A stretch of 5,857 nucleotides of DNA from a virus (taxonomy: Duplodnaviria; Heunggongvirae; Uroviricota; Caudoviricetes). Positions within the stretch are counted from its first letter, which is position 1. The number at the start of each line of letters is the position of its first letter. Shown here in pieces: positions 1 to 4,580 of the stretch. Position numbers and translations under genes: made by a program. The notes under the pieces are model-generated. The model made no database searches and was not told the DNA's origin. It was given only the letters and a program-made list of their open reading frames with translations. Where the stretch lies: the IMG/VR virus record IMGVR_UViG_3300028995_000024, positions 1 through 5,857 of that record; one strand, given 5' to 3'.

Positions 1-911
1 CGAAAAAGGCTTCGTCTAACAACAATTCCTTTAGTGCGATTTACAAGGAATGGTACGAGCACAAGAAGCAAGTCTGGTCAGTAGGATATGCGACTGAACT
101 TGCCAAAATGTTTGATGACGACATTTTGCCCATCATCGGCGGTCTTGAGATTCAGGATATTGAGCCGATGCAACTGCTGGAAGTAATCCGCAGATTTGAA
201 GATCGCGGTGCAATGGAGCGAGCAAATAAAGCCCGCAGAAGATGCGGCGAGGTTTTCCGTTACGCTATTGTCACTGGTAGGGCTAAATATAACCCGGCAC
301 CTGACCTTGCTGACGCCATGAAGGGATACCGCAAGAAGAACTTCCCGTTTTTACCTGCCGACCAGATCCCGGCATTCAACAAAGCACTTGCAACATTTTC
401 AGGAAGTATCGTATCGCTCATTGCGACCAAAGTTTTACGCTACACAGCCCTAAGAACGAAAGAGCTTCGTTCCATGCAATGGAAGAACGTCGATTTTGAA
501 AACAGGATTATCACCATCGACGCCAGTGTGATGAAGGGACGCAAAATTCATGTGGTCCCGATGTCAGACCAGGTGGTTGAACTTCTCACTACGCTAAGCT
601 CAATCACCAAACCAGTATCAGAGTTTGTTTTTGCCGGGCGCAACGATAAGAAGAAGCCAATCTGCGAGAACGCGGTATTGCTTGTGATCAAACAAATCGG
701 CTATGAGGGTCTGGAAAGCGGTCATGGATTCAGGCATGAATTCAGCACAATTATGAACGAGCACGAATGGCCTGCTGACGCTATTGAAGTGCAACTGGCA
801 CATGCCAACGGCGGATCTGTGCGTGGTATTTACAACCATGCTCAGTATCTCGATAAACGCAGAGAAATGATGCAATGGTGGGCGGACTGGCTTGAGGAGA
901 AGGTATCATAG
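1..911 (+). CDS. int: Tyrosine site-specific integrase (phage/P4-like family), 5'-partial; the N-terminus lies upstream of the window
   Basis: The reading frame is open from the window edge (first full codon at nt 3) to TAG at 909-911. Translation upstream of the ORF-track ATG at 108 stays open (...KKASSNNNSFSAIYKEWYEHKKQVWSVGYATELAK-MFDDD...), so that ATG is internal. Catalytic-domain signatures of tyrosine recombinases are present: LRTKELR (box I Arg), HGFRHEF (H-x-x-R box II) and RGIYNHAQYL (catalytic Tyr), ending in MMQWWADWL. Confidence 0.9.
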   Translation, partial: KKASSNNNSFSAIYKEWYEHKKQVWSVGYATELAKMFDDDILPIIGGLEIQDIEPMQLLEVIRRFEDRGAMERANKARRRCGEVFRYAIVTGRAKYNPAPDLADAMKGYRKKNFPFLPADQIPAFNKALATFSGSIVSLIATKVLRYTALRTKELRSMQWKNVDFENRIITIDASVMKGRKIHVVPMSDQVVELLTTLSSITKPVSEFVFAGRNDKKKPICENAVLLVIKQIGYEGLESGHGFRHEFSTIMNEHEWPADAIEVQLAHANGGSVRGIYNHAQYLDKRREMMQWWADWLEEKVS

Positions 912-920
912 GTAAACAGC

Positions 921-946
921 GCAAAGACTTGCAAACCTATGCAAAG
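921..946. repeat. Three direct hexamer repeats, GCAAAG / GCAAAC / GCAAAG, at exact 10-bp phasing just downstream of the int stop codon
   Basis: Read directly from the sequence: 921 gcaaagactt, 931 gcaaacctat, 941 gcaaagcttt. One helical turn between copies is consistent with a same-face protein-binding array. Function is unknown. Confidence 0.3.
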
Positions 947-1059
947 CTTTGTGTGTCCAGTTTTTGTCTCACGCATACAGCTTGAGATGCTAACTGGTCG
1001 ATCATCCAAGCTCTTAGTGGTAGACTCACCGCACACTTTTATCAGCGATTAATCATGAA

Positions 1060-1242
1060 ATGAAACTATCACTTGATAACCTCGTCCGCTTTGCTTCTTT
1101 AATGTGCGTAGCTGGCCTTCTAACTGGTTACCGTTCAAGATATCCATCACTACAGGTGATAGAGATACTCATGCTGGCGGTTTGGCTGCATCAGGACTAT
1201 CCTCACATCAAGAGCATCATAGAAAATAATAAAAAACAATAA
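1060..1242 (+). CDS. Hypothetical small protein (60 aa), doubtful; possibly a small membrane peptide or gene remnant upstream of the acyltransferase
   Basis: ATG-initiated ORF in the int-acyltransferase intergenic region with two short hydrophobic stretches (FASLMCVAGLLTG, VIEILMLAVWL). I recognise no family and see no convincing ribosome-binding site. It lies in the same orientation as, and 17 bp upstream of, the acyltransferase gene. Confidence 0.2.
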   Translation: MKLSLDNLVRFASLMCVAGLLTGYRSRYPSLQVIEILMLAVWLHQDYPHIKSIIENNKKQ

Positions 1243-1259: not shown

Positions 1260-2327
1260 ATGAATAGCAAAATTTTATCAGTGCATTACATGAGGGCTTT
1301 GGCCTCCATCGCGGTGTTAATAGATCATTTCTCAGGTCTATTGGTTATCAATGGGAATCCAATTCCATTTTTATCGAGAGGTGGATTTGGAGTAGATCTT
1401 TTCTACATTATTAGTGGATTTATCATCTACATTTCGTCAGGAAACAAAGATAATAACAAACCTATAAAATTCATACTAAAGCGATTTTTCAGAATTTATC
1501 CATTATTCATCGTTGCATGGATAATAGGGATGTCATTTGTGTTCAAGAGTGACAGCGTATGGTCATTTTTAGAGCCGCTACTATTGGTATATCAAAATTA
1601 TAATGGAATGGCCCCTCAGTTCGGTACCCATGTTATGGGAACCCCATGGACACTGGCTTACGAACTACTCTTTTACGCAATTTTTGTTTTAGCTATTTCA
1701 ATAACTCACAAGCACCGGGCGGCATTATCAATAGCGATACTGATCCTAATGCCGATATCACTACAACTAATATTCAACGATTCATTCTCCATTCAGAGTT
1801 CTGCATTTGCCAATGCAAGTAAAGACATTCCTATGTATGGAGTAATTAGAATGGCAAGTGGAACAATAATGTTTGAGTTTGCTATAGGAATTTTATTAGG
1901 TGTTTCCTTCAAGAAAATGAAGAAGATTGATATAACACAAAGCGCATCTACGTTATTCTTCTATTCTGGGGTAATGATATCTATTGCAATACTTATTACC
2001 AACGGAAATCAGATTTCTAAATTTGGTTTGCAAGGCTATTTCATTCCGTCAATTGTTCTTTTTATATCGTTTTTCTTCAGGGATAAAACATCAAATATAA
2101 AACACAATGGATTCCTGGAGTTCTTCGGAAATATTTCATACTCGCTGTACATCACACATTTCATAATTTATGTATGGATAGTTCAGCATCTTGACAGGGT
2201 ATGGATGGAACCGGTTAGGGGGTACCCTATAGTTATTATCGGAATGGTTGCAAGCATTATATTCTCTTGGTGTTGTTATGTCTTTGTAGAGAAACCATTC
2301 ATAAAAGTCGGCAAGCGATATTTATAA
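1260..2327 (+). CDS. Acyltransferase family 3 integral membrane protein (Oac/OafA-like carbohydrate O-acyltransferase); candidate O-antigen/LPS O-acetyltransferase
   Basis: 355-aa ORF that is hydrophobic throughout, with about 10 predicted transmembrane segments. Family-typical motifs are present: N-terminal R-x-L-A-x-I-A-V-x-x-x-H (RALASIAVLIDHF), GVDLFYIISGF, KRFFRIYPLF, WTLAYELLFY and C-terminal GNISYSLYITHF. A weak AGGT ribosome-binding site lies ~5 nt before the ATG. The gene is markedly AT-rich (about 25-35% G+C in sampled lines) against ~47% in int and ~55-60% in the tail genes. Confidence 0.85.
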   Translation: MNSKILSVHYMRALASIAVLIDHFSGLLVINGNPIPFLSRGGFGVDLFYIISGFIIYISSGNKDNNKPIKFILKRFFRIYPLFIVAWIIGMSFVFKSDSVWSFLEPLLLVYQNYNGMAPQFGTHVMGTPWTLAYELLFYAIFVLAISITHKHRAALSIAILILMPISLQLIFNDSFSIQSSAFANASKDIPMYGVIRMASGTIMFEFAIGILLGVSFKKMKKIDITQSASTLFFYSGVMISIAILITNGNQISKFGLQGYFIPSIVLFISFFFRDKTSNIKHNGFLEFFGNISYSLYITHFIIYVWIVQHLDRVWMEPVRGYPIVIIGMVASIIFSWCCYVFVEKPFIKVGKRYL

Positions 2328-2347
2328 AAATAGCGTCCATAAGGACT

Positions 2348-2379
2348 AATGCCAGTCAGTTAAGCAACTGACTGGCATT
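2348..2379 (+). terminator. Perfect 14-bp inverted repeat with 4-nt loop (AATGCCAGTCAGTT-aagc-AACTGACTGGCATT) 21 bp after the acyltransferase stop; possible terminator or RNA 3' stability hairpin
   Basis: The two arms are exact reverse complements, read directly. No U-tract follows (the next bases are acggcaatcagg), so it is not a canonical intrinsic terminator. The call rests on position and stem strength only. Confidence 0.35.
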
Positions 2380-2435
2380 ACGGCAATCAGGAGGGATATC
2401 CGATTTTGACAGAGCAACCATCTTTATCAAAATAA

Positions 2436-2663
2436 AACCTTATTGCATTGGCGGATTTGAAAAAAAGAAAACTTATTAATGAAGCCAACGAGCACATGAA
2501 CAGAAGACAATGGCCTGGTAAAGCGGCCATTGGTCGTCTGAAAGGTGAGAAACTGGCGCAATATAATTTGTGGCTGGATTATCTGGACGCACTGGAACTG
2601 GTTGATACCTCCAGTGCTCCAGATATTGAATGGCCTACGCCTCCGGCAGTTCAGGCCAGATGA
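2436..2663 (+). pseudogene. Tail-fibre assembly protein (Tfa/Mu-U family), C-terminal ~75-codon fragment, 5'-truncated
   Basis: The frame opens immediately after a TAA at 2433-2435 and has no in-frame ATG; the ORF track starts it at a TTG at 2448. The translation ends ...KLAQYNLWLDYLDALELVDTSSAPDIEWPTPPAVQAR, the characteristic Tfa C-terminus (DTSxAPDxxWP). The sequence upstream is unrelated and AT-rich, so the N-terminal part of the gene is missing. Confidence 0.7.
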
Positions 2664-3228
2664 CATCCGGCGCGGTGCTGGTATCTGTTGCCGTCACCGC
2701 GTCAATGTAATCCAGCACGGCGTTAAGTCGGGTGGTCTCTGCCTGCATCAGCTTCCGCCCGGCCTGTAATTTCAGCTGAATCAGACTAATGGAAGCCATT
2801 GCTGCATCAATCAGTGACTGGCGCTGTGCTTCCGCCACTTCTACTACGGCACCGTGTTGTGCCTCAGTATCTGTCACCCATTTCTCACCATCCCATTCAT
2901 CGTATGGTGTTAACGGTGAAAGCGTGACATAATCGTCTTTGATGGCACCGATATAATCCACTGTAACAGCTGCACCATTTTCTGTTGAGTAAACAGTCTC
3001 ATTGCGATGGTCTTCTTCATGGCTCCATCCCTTACCCGTAAATACTGCCACTTTCCCCGGAATGTTTTCGCCAGGGTCAATACCAGTGGAACAGGCGGGC
3101 ATACTTACGCCAGTATTAATATATTCATCAGACCAGCCAGTATATTCATACGTTACTGCATCATAATAAAAACAACGCATATCGCCCGGCACTGTAGCCA
3201 GCCCATTTTCATCAAAAACAGGTTTCAT
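2635..3228 (-). CDS. tfa: Tail-fibre assembly protein (Tfa/Mu-U/lambda-Tfa family)
   Basis: 197-aa ORF whose C-terminus ...RLNAVLDYIDAVTATDTSTAPDVIWPELPEA matches the Tfa family signature. Its ATG (3228..3226) overlaps the stop of the upstream tail-fibre gene as TAATG, indicating translational coupling. It lies immediately 3' of a tail-fibre gene, as expected for this family. Confidence 0.85.
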   Translation of the reverse strand: MKPVFDENGLATVPGDMRCFYYDAVTYEYTGWSDEYINTGVSMPACSTGIDPGENIPGKVAVFTGKGWSHEEDHRNETVYSTENGAAVTVDYIGAIKDDYVTLSPLTPYDEWDGEKWVTDTEAQHGAVVEVAEAQRQSLIDAAMASISLIQLKLQAGRKLMQAETTRLNAVLDYIDAVTATDTSTAPDVIWPELPEA

Positions 3229-3992
3229 TATTTAGCCCTCACCAGAAAGTTAAACGCGATATTACGAGGACGTGTTTCACTTGCAGTTTTCGTTTCAATG
3301 GCACTATCAATAGAGAAATGCTGCAAATCCTGAGATGCAGCACCGTAATTGGTGTAAGAATTAACAAGTGCACCCGCTTTTATTGAGCCAGAGCTACCCA
3401 TAGCTCCCCCCATGAAATTCCCTGTTATACGCTGCTGAGCAAAGTCCTGTGCGCTTAACAACGTGCGACCACCGTCTACACCTCGCCCGTCATCCCAGAT
3501 ACGAATGAAATCACCGCGGGCTTCAGGTAATACCAGCGAAGGAAACACTTTCGCCAGCACAGGATAATCAGAAGCAGAAAATTTCGCCCCGTTGAACTTC
3601 AAAAACACCATACTGGACCAGCTGCCGATTACAGTATTTGGCATTGCAGCGGACGGCCATAAGAACGGAACGCCAATAGCTGGAGCACCTTCTCCCAAAC
3701 CAAGGTTTTCGAGAGCTGTTTTCACCGTACCATCCGATTTGATATCGCCAAACGGATTATTGCGGCTTAACAGCAGCGCACGAAGCGCGGTAAGCAGCTG
3801 GTCGTGCCGCGTCTTCTCAAGACTGGCACCGGATGCCTCCACCACGCTGCAAAGCTCCTCCTGCAACATGTCAAAGTAGTCATCATCCAGAGCGGTGGCA
3901 GGTGTGCCGGTCTGGGGGTTACCACGGGTAAAACCGTTCTTACCCGCGCCGAACTTATCCTTCTGCGCGGTTTTCGTGTCTATACGATGCAT
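3228..3992 (-). CDS. stf: Phage tail-fibre protein (short side tail fibre; conserved N-terminal anchor region plus C-terminal collar-like receptor-binding region)
   Basis: 254-aa ORF. The N-terminus [14 protein letters not shown]...[27 protein letters not shown] resembles the conserved N-terminal region of enterobacterial prophage tail fibres. The C-terminal part contains a motif like the phage tail-collar domain ([33 protein letters not shown]). It sits between a gp48-like baseplate gene and tfa. Confidence 0.8.
3690..3715. other. Candidate DNA-invertase crossover site (hix/gix/pix-like 26-bp dyad) inside the tail-fibre gene
   Basis: TTCTCCCAAACC-AA-GGTTTTCGAGAG consists of two 12-bp half-sites around a 2-bp AA core. 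The left half and the reverse complement of the right half (CTCTCGAAAACC) agree at 9 of 12 positions. Compare hixL TTCTTGAAAACC-AA-GGTTTTTGATAA and gix TTCCTGTAAACC-GA-GGTTTTGGATAA, both recalled from memory. The site encodes residues ~93-101 ([10 protein letters not shown]) of the tail fibre, which is where a constant/variable boundary would be expected. Confidence 0.5.
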
Positions 3993-3995
3993 GGA

Positions 3996-4580
3996 TTACT
4001 CCGGATATTTAAAAATTACGTAGGTATCCCACGGGCAGAGTTTGTTAAGCACGCACTCGACAACGGTGTCCCCCCAGATACGCAGCGCAGAATCACAGGG
4101 ATCGCCACATGTCATCCAGGTGGTGTTGGTGGCGGCTGGCATGTTGACCTGCCAGTAATACCGCCATTCCGGCGCATTCACCGCGTCAGTACAGACCGAT
4201 GAGCAGGTGAACGTGCTTTTGTCGTATCGCGTGATGTTGGCATCTGGTCTGCCCAGGGCAGCAAGCTGTGCAAGATAAAAATTCTCGTTGATGCTGCCCG
4301 CCAGGTTAACCTTCGCATCCAGCCGTTGCTGACGCTGACGAAGGGTCTTTGTCCCTGCGGGAATACATTCATCCGGCAGACCGCACAGACGCTCCCAGCG
4401 GTTTATCAGTTCAGTGGTGGTGCGCGGATCCAGCTCCCGCATCAGGGCATCCGCACGCTGATGAACACGGGTTAATGACGGTGCCGCACCGGCAATCGCC
4501 GGATCGCTGGCTGATCACGCCGGACCGGGGGGCAACAGTGCCGACAACAGACGGATGTAATCATCGTTTGTCACGTCCAT
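3996..4580 (-). pseudogene. Mu gp48-like / DUF2313 (YmfQ-like) baseplate-associated tail protein, interrupted by an in-frame TGA at 4517..4515
   Basis: The ORF track reports only 3996..4442 (148 aa, [26 protein letters not shown]...). The same frame continues upstream for 24 codons ([24 protein letters not shown]) to a TGA. A further 21 codons upstream (MDVTNDDYIRLLSALLPPGPA) start at an ATG at 4580..4578, which has a GGGGA ribosome-binding site ~7 nt upstream and overlaps the stop of the upstream gene. An intact gene would be 194 codons. From memory of the family, the position holding TGA normally holds Trp (TGG) in an LLPPGxAW motif. Confidence 0.7.

What the first reader, a model, noticed from the sequence alone, without database searches (positions are those of the whole stretch)
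1260..2327. AT-rich acyltransferase-3 gene between integrase and tail module: candidate lysogenic-conversion cargo
The only intact non-structural gene in the window is a ~10-TM acyltransferase-family-3 protein. It sits in the position where temperate enterobacterial phages and cryptic prophages carry O-antigen modification modules (gtrABC or oac), immediately downstream of int and next to the tail-fibre genes. Its base composition (~30% G+C) differs sharply from both neighbours (~47% and ~55-60%), which points to separate acquisition. Phage-borne Oac-type enzymes O-acetylate O-antigen sugars, which changes serotype and can block superinfecting phages that use the O-antigen as receptor. The substrate and sugar position cannot be read from the sequence, so this could be an uncharacterised specificity.
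Basis: partly seen in the sequence, partly recalled or inferred. Interest (0 to 1): 0.6.

Follow-up and report, generated by a model that had tools for sequence, protein, structure and literature searches.

The report
Prophage-borne surface-sugar acetyltransferase gene
A decayed virus integrated in an E. coli chromosome has kept intact one membrane enzyme gene that most likely adds acetyl groups to the cell's surface sugar coat; this is a familiar viral trick, here carried out by an unstudied version of the enzyme.

Summary
Window 1260-2327 (+) is an intact 355-aa acyltransferase-3 (AT3, PF01757) gene with 10 predicted membrane helices and all catalytic motifs. G+C is 35.5%, not ~30%. The window is E. 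coli chromosome: argW tRNA, intS, this gene, then convergent tail-fibre genes of a decayed prophage. IntS is 99% identical to the integrases of phage Sf6 and K-12 CPS-53. In those, the same slot holds oac (a proven O-antigen acetylase) and gtrABS. Orthologues in Salmonella (92%) and Enterobacter (75-78%) mostly lie beside tailspike genes. dN/dS against Salmonella is 0.06. The protein is not an orthologue of any characterised Oac, OafA, WecH or OpgC.

The lysogenic-conversion reading is therefore supported: a new member of a known kind. The substrate is unproven. Three of four carrier strains have the O17/O44/O73/O77/O106 O-antigen cluster, and one Enterobacter carrier has a colinear cluster, but one E. 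coli carrier is O125.

Two extras:
- A conserved ~60-aa two-helix ORF (1060-1242) sits directly upstream of this AT3 and of unrelated AT3s elsewhere.
- A 34-bp IS4 scar (2347-2380) marks the junction between cassette and tail module.

The parts
1..911 (+). 3' part of intS, the argW-specific prophage integrase (residues 119-385 of 385); the gene is cut by the window edge
   Evidence: PF00589 and PF22022 hits. The full gene is annotated in strain 300033 directly after tRNA-Arg. It is 99% identical to Sf6 Int and K-12 IntS.
921..971 (.). Conserved 51-bp element containing the palindrome CAAAGCTTTG; role unknown (promoter/operator or module boundary)
   Evidence: Shared at 88-94% with K-12 (downstream of intS, upstream of gtrA), with Salmonella and with Enterobacter (upstream of the AT3 orthologues), while the flanking DNA differs.
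1060..1242 (+). 60-aa ORF with two predicted membrane helices, a conserved companion of AT3 genes
   Evidence: 42-47% identical ORFs lie directly upstream of AT3 genes in Enterobacter, in two metagenome/read-assembly contigs and in another genome. There are 15 small-protein cluster representatives (53-82 aa) at E <= 1e-3 in 1.84 billion proteins. No Pfam, PHROG or PDB match.
1202..1230 (+). Promoter-like site (CTCACA, 17 nt, AATAAT) 30 bp upstream of the AT3 start; weak evidence only
   Evidence: Consensus scan, 9 of 12 positions. It lies inside the 55 bp of upstream DNA conserved with the Salmonella cassette, where homology starts at 1205.
1260..2327 (+). AT3-only membrane acyltransferase gene (355 aa), the candidate conversion enzyme
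2328..2346 (.). Left half of the cassette's original terminator hairpin, kept up to ...GGAC
   Evidence: The Salmonella orthologue has the full hairpin ATATAGCGTCC-TTAT-GGACGCTATAT at this point. Homology with the window ends at 2346.
2347..2380 (.). 34-bp perfect palindrome made of both termini of IS4 (an internally deleted IS4 scar), lying exactly at the cassette/tail-module junction
   Evidence: 15+15-nt inverted repeat, 100% complementary. It matches IS4 ends in many E. coli genomes. A full IS4 in L023 sits in the same kind of terminator hairpin after GGAC. Homology to other e14-like tail modules begins at 2383.
2442..2663 (+). C-terminal fragment of an alternative tail-fibre assembly gene, a remnant of a Pin-invertible segment
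   Evidence: PF02413 hit. Annotated as a pseudogene missing its N-terminus. In an intact relative the same DNA is the middle of a tfa gene next to pinE.
2635..3228 (-). Tail-fibre assembly gene, convergent with the AT3 gene
   Evidence: PF02413 at 1.9e-26; annotation.
3228..3992 (-). Short tail-fibre / receptor-binding protein gene (254 aa)
   Evidence: Weak Collar-domain hit below the Pfam cut-off. Its position is between ymfQ and tfa, and the equivalent gene is annotated 'phage tail protein' in relatives.

Best explanation
The gene encodes a stand-alone AT3 membrane acyltransferase carried as lysogenic-conversion cargo in the variable slot between the argW integrase and the receptor-binding genes of a prophage that is now defective.

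Inferred mechanism, following the OafA/OafB/Oac literature:
- Cytoplasmic acetyl-CoA enters a pore formed by the 10 helices.
- The CoA phosphate is held by R12 and by R75/R78.
- The acetyl group is presented near H23 at the periplasmic face.

The expected consequences are a changed O-epitope and hindered binding or cleavage by phages that use that O-antigen.

The most likely substrate is the mannose-rich O77-group backbone (Man-Man-Man-GlcNAc). This step is inference from co-occurrence only. Shown here: family, fold, intact motifs, purifying selection, slot equivalence, mosaic acquisition. Inferred: donor, acceptor and phenotype.
For: Family and fold:
- PF01757 at 102 bits; phrog_3333 'O-acetyltransferase'.
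- 10-helix model, pLDDT 88.8.

Motifs:
- The motifs shown essential in OafA and Oac (R/K-X10-H, FFXISG, RXXR; PMC7448272) are present.
- H23, R75 and R78 are invariant, and R12 nearly invariant, in 54-58 homologues.

Slot:
- IntS is 99% identical to Sf6 Int and K-12 IntS.
- Sf6 has int, oac, then a convergent tailspike. K-12 has intS, gtrA, gtrB, gtrS, then tfa.
- Other E. coli argW prophages with the same tail module carry other, unrelated PF01757 genes there.

Orthologue context:
- In most loci examined the orthologues lie next to tailspike genes: a Salmonella P22-like prophage and Enterobacter prophage remnants. Two loci lack phage genes (see evidence against).

Selection:
- dN/dS 0.059 with dS 0.85 against Salmonella.
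- The gene is intact while sheath, baseplate, ymfQ and circularisation genes are pseudogenes and no head or portal gene is annotated between the terminase and tail-sheath genes.

Substrate hint:
- Strains 300033, CB209 and Yu5 carry the O17/O44/O73/O77/O106 cluster, which occurs in only 94 of 5426 genomes.
- The Enterobacter contig with orthologue P0003 also carries a colinear GT-GT-manC-manB-wzy-wzx cluster whose Wzy is 54% identical.
- One Salmonella member is from serovar Bahrenfeld. By my own knowledge of the Kauffmann-White scheme this is O:6,14,24, a group sharing the O77 backbone.

Precedent:
- Sf6 Oac blocks superinfection (PMC9558356).
- CUS-3 at argW keeps neuO while the prophage decays (PMC9659370).
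Against: - There are no biochemical, serological or expression data.
- The gene is not orthologous to any characterised enzyme: 28% identity to Sf6 Oac over its N-terminal half, and no characterised phage Oac among the tblastn hits.
- Strain 300444 carries the same gene in a window 99.9% identical but has an O125 cluster, so the O77 link is not absolute.
- The E. coli carriers may be partly clonal, which weakens the statistics.
- In E. cloacae (L110) and in a metagenome island between yedD and fliE (L016) the gene has no phage genes nearby.
- The promoter is only a weak consensus match.
- No O-acetylated member of the O77 group is described in the review read (PMC7685785).
Confidence: 0.75

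Rival explanations
1. The enzyme acylates a surface or periplasmic glycan other than the O-antigen, such as a capsule, colanic acid, ECA, LPS core or periplasmic glucans, still as prophage cargo.
For: AT3 proteins act on many glycans (PMC9558356). The same argW locus carries the capsule acetylase neuO in CUS-3. The gene persists intact in an O125 strain. Some orthologues lie outside recognisable prophages.
Against: The gene lies next to tailspike or tail-fibre genes in most contexts. The characterised cargo of this exact slot with the same integrase is O-antigen modification, by oac or gtr. It co-occurs with O77-type clusters in two genera. Similarity to WecH and OpgC is negligible.
Confidence: 0.13
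2. The gene is a silent or functionless relic that merely survives in a decaying prophage.
For: The prophage is heavily degraded. An IS4 event destroyed the gene's original terminator. One genome has an int::AT3 deletion fusion, P0007. Promoter evidence is weak.
Against: The full-length ORF has every catalytic motif. dN/dS is 0.059 over dS 0.85. The identical protein is seen on about 100 contigs. The gene is intact in all 5 complete-genome records that hold it. Retention of cargo in a decaying argW prophage has a precedent in neuO.
Confidence: 0.07
3. The enzyme transfers an acyl group other than acetyl (for example succinyl, as OpgC does) or acts on a non-carbohydrate acceptor.
For: The AT3 family includes succinyl and longer-chain acyl transferases. 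The structural neighbour GWT1 transfers a fatty acyl group. Nothing in the sequence fixes the donor.
Against: Every characterised phage-borne AT3-only enzyme mentioned in the review read acetylates O-antigen sugars. Similarity to OpgC is negligible. The best PHROG family is annotated O-acetyltransferase.
Confidence: 0.05

Closest known systems
OacA (Oac) of Shigella phage Sf6
   Same: AT3-only architecture of similar size (333 vs 355 aa). Same gene order: attP, int, acyltransferase, then a convergent receptor-binding gene. The integrase is 99% identical. The R/K-X10-H, FFXISG-type and RXXR motifs are shared.
   Different: Only 28% identity over the N-terminal 176 residues, so it is not an orthologue. 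Sf6 is a P22-like podovirus with a tailspike. Here the tail module is an e14/Mu-like baseplate with fibres. Sf6 has no small upstream ORF. The Oac substrate (rhamnose I of the S. flexneri O-antigen) is absent from O77-type antigens.
gtrA-gtrB-gtrS (yfdGHI) of E. coli K-12 cryptic prophage CPS-53
   Same: Same chromosomal site (argW), the same integrase (99%), and the same slot between intS and the tfa genes in a decayed prophage. DNA homology runs to 60 bp past the int stop and resumes in the tfa fragment.
   Different: Three genes that glucosylate through a lipid-linked sugar, against one gene predicted to transfer an acyl group (acetyl by analogy).
NeuO of prophage CUS-3 (E. coli K1)
   Same: A surface-glycan O-acetyltransferase carried by an argW-integrated prophage. 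It is retained while the prophage decays, and it protects against phage (PMC9659370).
   Different: NeuO belongs to a different, non-AT3 enzyme family (a soluble hexapeptide-repeat enzyme, by my own knowledge) and acts on the K1 capsule. It is phase-variable through heptanucleotide repeats. No such repeats and no GATC cluster are present here.
OafA / OafB (Salmonella) and OatA: AT3-SGNH fused acetyltransferases
   Same: The same AT3 membrane domain and essential residues, and the same proposed acetyl-CoA pore mechanism (PMC7448272, PMC9833829).
   Different: There is no 11th helix and no SGNH domain here: the protein ends at residue 355 and Pfam covers 7-340. Transfer to the sugar must therefore be done by the AT3 domain itself or by a partner.
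Human HGSNAT and fungal GWT1 (solved structures)
   Different: Sequence identity is 12-13%. They are eukaryotic, larger and act on different acceptors. Foldseek finds no PDB match at E <= 0.001, and the PDB sequence search finds no related chain at E <= 1.

Membership tests
Acyltransferase-3 (Pfam PF01757) | Profile match above the curated threshold over the whole domain | tested here: met
   102.4 bits against a cut-off of 31; residues 7-340 match model positions 3-325 of 326.
Acyltransferase-3 (Pfam PF01757) | Ten transmembrane helices | tested here: met
   The AF2 model (pLDDT 88.8) has 10 long helices. Hydropathy gives 9 strong and 1-2 weak segments.
Acyltransferase-3 (Pfam PF01757) | R/K-X10-H in helix 1, FFXISG-type motif in helix 2, and RXXR before or in helix 3 (residues essential in OafA, OafB and Oac) | tested here: met
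   R12...H23, F48-Y49-I50-I51-S52-G53 and R75-F-F-R78 are present. H23, F48, S52, G53, R75 and R78 are invariant, and R12 nearly invariant, in 54-58 homologues.
Acyltransferase-3 (Pfam PF01757) | Acyl-CoA-dependent transfer to an extracytoplasmic acceptor | not testable with these tools
   Supported only by structural similarity to HGSNAT and GWT1 and by the literature model.
Phage-borne AT3-only O-antigen acetylases (Oac type) | AT3 domain alone, with no SGNH domain | tested here: met
   The protein is 355 aa with a single Pfam domain covering 7-340.
Phage-borne AT3-only O-antigen acetylases (Oac type) | Encoded in a prophage next to int/att and the receptor-binding protein gene | tested here: met
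   The order is argW, intS, AT3, then convergent tfa and fibre genes, the same layout as Sf6. Orthologues lie beside tailspikes.
Phage-borne AT3-only O-antigen acetylases (Oac type) | Orthology to a characterised member (OacA, B, C or D, or the PhiV10 Oac) | tested here: not met
   28% identity over 176 aa to Sf6 Oac. No characterised phage Oac appears among the tblastn hits at E <= 1e-3, and the best phage hit is 31%.
Phage-borne AT3-only O-antigen acetylases (Oac type) | O-acetylates the O-antigen, converts the serotype and blocks superinfection | not testable with these tools
   Only indirect evidence exists: co-occurrence with O77-type O-antigen clusters, with one O125 exception.
AT3-SGNH fused acetyltransferases (OafA, OafB, OatA) | An 11th helix plus a C-terminal periplasmic SGNH domain | tested here: not met
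   The protein ends at residue 355 and has no SGNH or GDSL hit.
Housekeeping enterobacterial AT3s (WecH, OpgC) | Sequence orthology and conserved chromosomal position | tested here: not met
   BLASTP E is 0.012 and 0.013. No NCBIfam model matches. The gene is present in 5 of 5426 complete genomes, and only inside the argW prophage.
gtrABC glucosylation cassette | GtrA flippase, GtrB bactoprenol glucosyltransferase and a serotype-specific GtrC | tested here: not met
   No such genes occur between int and tfa in the window. They occupy the equivalent slot in K-12.

The most novel reading that the evidence does not exclude
Two linked possibilities remain open.

(a) This AT3 clade may be the unrecognised genetic determinant of an O-acetylated variant of the shared Man-Man-Man-GlcNAc O-antigen backbone. 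That would cover the E. coli O77 group, Salmonella O:6,14 (perhaps the minor factor O:24) and Enterobacter. The O77 group has so far been described as varying only by glucosylation.

(b) The conserved ~60-aa two-helix protein encoded directly upstream of this AT3, and of unrelated AT3s in other prophages, may be a previously unnoticed partner or regulator of stand-alone AT3 acetyltransferases.
Probability: 0.3. Interest if true: 0.6.

Novelty: new member of a known kind. Interest (0 to 1): 0.4.

Why it matters
- O-antigen acetylation changes serotype, antibody recognition and phage susceptibility.
- The O17/O44/O73/O77/O106 group cannot be resolved by genoserotyping and includes an emerging Shiga-toxin-producing lineage (PMC13188871). 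A prophage acetylase acting on this backbone would add a hidden layer of antigenic variation.
- Such an acetylase would also give a PCR-typable marker.
- The argW int-adjacent slot emerges as an exchange site. It holds oac, gtr, at least four unrelated AT3 genes and an unknown 271-aa membrane protein, behind one conserved integrase and in front of different tail types.
- The small upstream ORF, if it is functional, bears on how AT3-only enzymes complete the transfer without an SGNH domain. The AT3 literature states this as an open question.

Tried and rejected
- **PDB sequence search** with the AT3 protein found nothing at E <= 1.
- **First genome-contig scan** with the single protein found no relative. 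The alignment-based scan returned only relatives at 37% identity or less in diverse bacteria, which says nothing specific about function. I did not analyse those contexts.
- **Word-indexed protein search with the 60-aa ORF** found one hit only. The exhaustive search was required.
- **tblastn of two members of the small-ORF family** against the phage collection found no match.
- **Confirming from the paper library that serovar Bahrenfeld is O:6,14,24, and that Salmonella O:6,14 shares the O77 backbone**, failed. Both points rest on my own knowledge.
- **Linking the Salmonella carrier genome directly to its O-antigen cluster** was not possible with the available look-ups.
- **Phase variation** was considered and not supported. 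The upstream region has a single GATC, and there are no tandem repeats in the 5' coding region.
- **A strict association with the O77 group** was rejected by strain 300444, which is O125.
- **Strain 042 (O44)** was checked for alternative cargo at argW. The site is empty there.
- **dN/dS for the small ORF** failed because of an indel.

Full report
**What is in the window.** The window is E. coli chromosome. It is 100% identical to strain 300033 and 97-99.9% identical to four other complete-genome records, out of 5426 genomes. In strain 300033 the gene order is:
- yfdC
- tRNA-Arg (argW)
- intS (385 aa, cut by the window edge)
- the 355-aa acyltransferase gene
- a fragment of a tail-fibre assembly gene
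- then, on the opposite strand, tfa, a short tail-fibre gene, ymfQ (internal stop), baseplate J, gp46 and the rest of a tail module

Many of these phage genes are pseudogenes. No head or portal gene is annotated between the terminase and tail-sheath genes. The element is therefore a defective prophage at the argW site.

**The observation.**
- The ORF at 1260-2327 (+) is as described.
- It matches PF01757 over the whole domain, at 102 bits against a cut-off of 31. It also matches the PHROG family annotated O-acetyltransferase.
- It matches no NCBIfam model and no PDB sequence.
- G+C is 35.5%. The int part is 47.6% and the tail side averages 54%.
- Hydropathy and a confident AlphaFold2 model (pLDDT 88.8, pTM 0.90; 10 long helices) agree with the 10-helix AT3 topology.

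**Integrity and selection.**
- The residues shown by mutagenesis to be essential in OafA, OafB and Oac (PMC7448272) are all present: R12-X10-H23, F48-Y-I-I-S52-G53 and R75-F-F-R78.
- H23, F48, S52, G53, R75 and R78 are invariant, and R12 nearly so, in alignments of 54-58 homologues that include Sf6 Oac.
- Against the Salmonella orthologue (92% protein identity, 85% DNA identity), dN/dS is 0.059 with dS 0.85. This is strong purifying selection over a long divergence.
- All orthologues have 33-39% G+C. Low G+C is therefore a property of the family.

**The slot.**
- IntS here is 99% identical to the integrase of Shigella phage Sf6 and to K-12 IntS.
- In Sf6 the order is attP, int, oac, then a convergent tailspike gene. 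Oac is the classic O-antigen acetylase that also blocks Sf6 superinfection (PMC9558356).
- In K-12 CPS-53 the order is argW, intS, gtrA, gtrB, gtrS, then tfa genes.
- DNA homology between the window and K-12 runs to position 971 and resumes at 2462. Homology with Sf6 stops at 904, inside the 3' end of int.
- Other E. coli strains have the same integrase and the same tail module but carry different cargo in this slot. Three of them carry PF01757 genes of 311, 317 and 373 aa, which are unrelated or only 27% identical to this one. One carries a 271-aa membrane protein with no Pfam match.
- The argW locus also hosts CUS-3, whose cargo neuO acetylates the K1 capsule. neuO is retained while that prophage decays (PMC9659370).
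- The gene thus sits in a recognised exchange site for surface-glycan modification genes.

**Relatives.**
- The protein belongs to a small clade: Salmonella enterica 92%, Enterobacter 75-78%, a metagenome sequence 64%. Identity then drops to 39% or less.
- The exact protein is on record on about 100 contigs.
- In Salmonella the gene lies at the end of a P22-like prophage, convergent with a tailspike gene and next to ant, arc and mnt.
- In Enterobacter it lies beside tailspike genes in prophage remnants, often followed by a second AT3 gene.
- Two contexts lack phage genes: E. cloacae L110, and a three-AT3 island between yedD and fliE.
- Identity to Sf6 Oac is 28% over 176 residues. The best hit in 50,697 phage records is 31%. 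WecH and OpgC are essentially unrelated.
- The protein is therefore a member of the AT3 family and works like an Oac-type enzyme. It is not an orthologue of any characterised one.

**Mechanism.**
- Both proteins move an acyl group from cytosolic acyl-CoA across a membrane.
- Combined with the OafB modelling work (PMC9833829), the most likely mechanism runs as follows. Acetyl-CoA enters a transient pore. Its phosphates are held by the conserved arginines. The acetyl group is presented near the conserved histidine at the periplasmic face. It is then transferred to the glycan.
- How AT3-only enzymes perform the last step without an SGNH domain is an open question in the literature.

**Substrate.**
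- Three of the four distinct E. coli carrier strains (300033, CB209, Yu5) have the O17/O44/O73/O77/O106 O-antigen cluster. That cluster occurs in 94 of 5426 genomes.
- CB209 is O77g:H18 (PMC13248637).
- This group shares a Man-Man-Man-GlcNAc backbone. The review read describes its variation only through prophage gtr glucosylation (PMC7685785; PMC13188871).
- The Enterobacter contig that carries orthologue P0003 also carries a colinear GT-GT-manC-manB-wzy-wzx cluster, with a Wzy 54% identical to the E. coli one.
- One Salmonella cluster member is named serovar Bahrenfeld. By my own knowledge this is O:6,14,24, a group sharing the O77 backbone. I could not confirm either point with the tools.
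- Against a strict link, strain 300444 has the same gene in a window 99.9% identical but an O125 cluster. The E. coli carriers may also be partly clonal.
- I rate the O77-backbone substrate as plausible, about 0.4-0.5, and not established.

**How the cassette got here.**
- DNA homology with the Salmonella cassette covers 1205-2346, which is the gene plus 55 bp upstream and 19 bp downstream. A separate 51-bp element at 921-971 is also shared.
- In Salmonella the stop codon is followed by a perfect terminator hairpin. In the window only its left half survives, up to GGAC at 2346.
- Next comes a 34-bp perfect palindrome (2347-2380) made of both IS4 termini.
- A complete IS4 in another strain sits at the same position of a similar terminator hairpin.
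- From 2383 the sequence matches the middle of an alternative tfa gene. In intact relatives that gene lies next to the pinE invertase.
- An IS4 insertion into the cassette terminator, followed by IS4-associated deletion or recombination, therefore best explains the right-hand junction and the loss of the invertase region.

**The small ORF.**
- ORF 1060-1242 (60 aa, two hydrophobic helices) ends 17 bp before the AT3 start.
- ORFs 42-47% identical lie 6 bp upstream of, or overlapping, the Enterobacter orthologues. This holds even though the DNA there is no longer alignable.
- An exhaustive search finds 15 small-protein cluster representatives of 53-82 aa. V9, R10, M38 and W42 are invariant, and G23, E35 and D46 nearly invariant.
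- In the two further contexts with a complete downstream gene, that gene is again a PF01757 gene next to a tailspike or a large convergent gene. Those AT3 proteins share no more than motif-level similarity with this one.
- A family HMM hits no locus that lacks a downstream AT3 gene, except one where the contig ends just after the small ORF (L115). It does not hit Sf6, K-12 or the Salmonella loci.
- The ORF is disrupted in E. hormaechei and absent in Salmonella, so it is not obligatory.
- It has no Pfam, PHROG, PDB or phage-collection match.
- Its role is unknown. An accessory or regulatory partner of AT3-only enzymes is the most interesting option.

**Verdict.** The lysogenic-conversion interpretation is supported as far as sequence evidence can reach. 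The gene is a new, uncharacterised member of a well-known kind of system. The points of wider interest are the possible link to the O77-type backbone across three genera and the conserved small companion ORF. Both need experiments.

Noticed in passing
window 1060-1242 (+): A conserved ~60-aa ORF with two predicted membrane helices lies directly upstream of the AT3 gene. Homologues (33-47% identical, plus one at 92%) precede both related and unrelated AT3 genes in other prophages. It has no Pfam, PHROG or PDB match.
   Followed up: yes
window 2347-2380: A 34-bp perfect palindrome made of both IS4 termini (an internally deleted IS4) is inserted in the AT3 terminator hairpin. It lies exactly at the junction between the cassette and the tail module.
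   Followed up: yes
window 921-971: A 51-bp element with the palindrome CAAAGCTTTG is conserved after intS in K-12 and in other E. coli, and upstream of the AT3 orthologues in Salmonella and Enterobacter. The surrounding DNA is not conserved. Its function is unknown.
   Followed up: partly
window 2442-2663 (+) and 2635-3228 (-): A tfa fragment overlaps, end to end, an intact convergent tfa gene. This is the remnant of a Pin-invertible tail-fibre segment. The pinE invertase and the alternative fibre end present in intact relatives (L106) are deleted here.
   Followed up: partly
window 3996-4580 (-); L001 26041-45133: ymfQ has an internal stop. The baseplate, circularisation, sheath, DUF968 and repressor genes are pseudogenes. 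No head or portal gene is annotated between the terminase and tail-sheath genes. The prophage is defective while int and the AT3 gene remain intact.
   Followed up: partly
P0007 (406 aa): In one genome a deletion fuses IntS residues 1-214 in frame to AT3 residues ~88-272. This destroys both genes and is an example of cargo loss.
   Followed up: partly
L006, L007, L008, L009 (slot between intS and tfa): Other E. coli argW prophages with the same integrase and tail module carry three other mutually divergent AT3 genes (311, 317 and 373 aa). One carries a 271-aa multi-helix protein with no Pfam match, which could be a further kind of modification gene.
   Followed up: partly
L013-L015 9124-10119; L110 7124-8119; L016 9782-12030: In Enterobacter a second, unrelated AT3 gene (331 aa) follows the orthologue directly. 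In a metagenome contig three AT3 genes lie in a row between yedD and fliE, with no phage genes nearby.
   Followed up: no
L022 (strain 300444, NZ_CM128586.1 806000-830000): One carrier strain from the same country as 300033 has an O125 O-antigen cluster in place of the O77-group cluster. The prophage window is 99.9% identical. This suggests an O-antigen switch after the prophage was acquired.
   Followed up: partly
L010-L012 7774-8051: In E. hormaechei the small upstream ORF is disrupted. The C-terminal half of a second copy is fused in frame to the AT3 start, which gives the 17-aa N-terminal extension of P0002.
   Followed up: no
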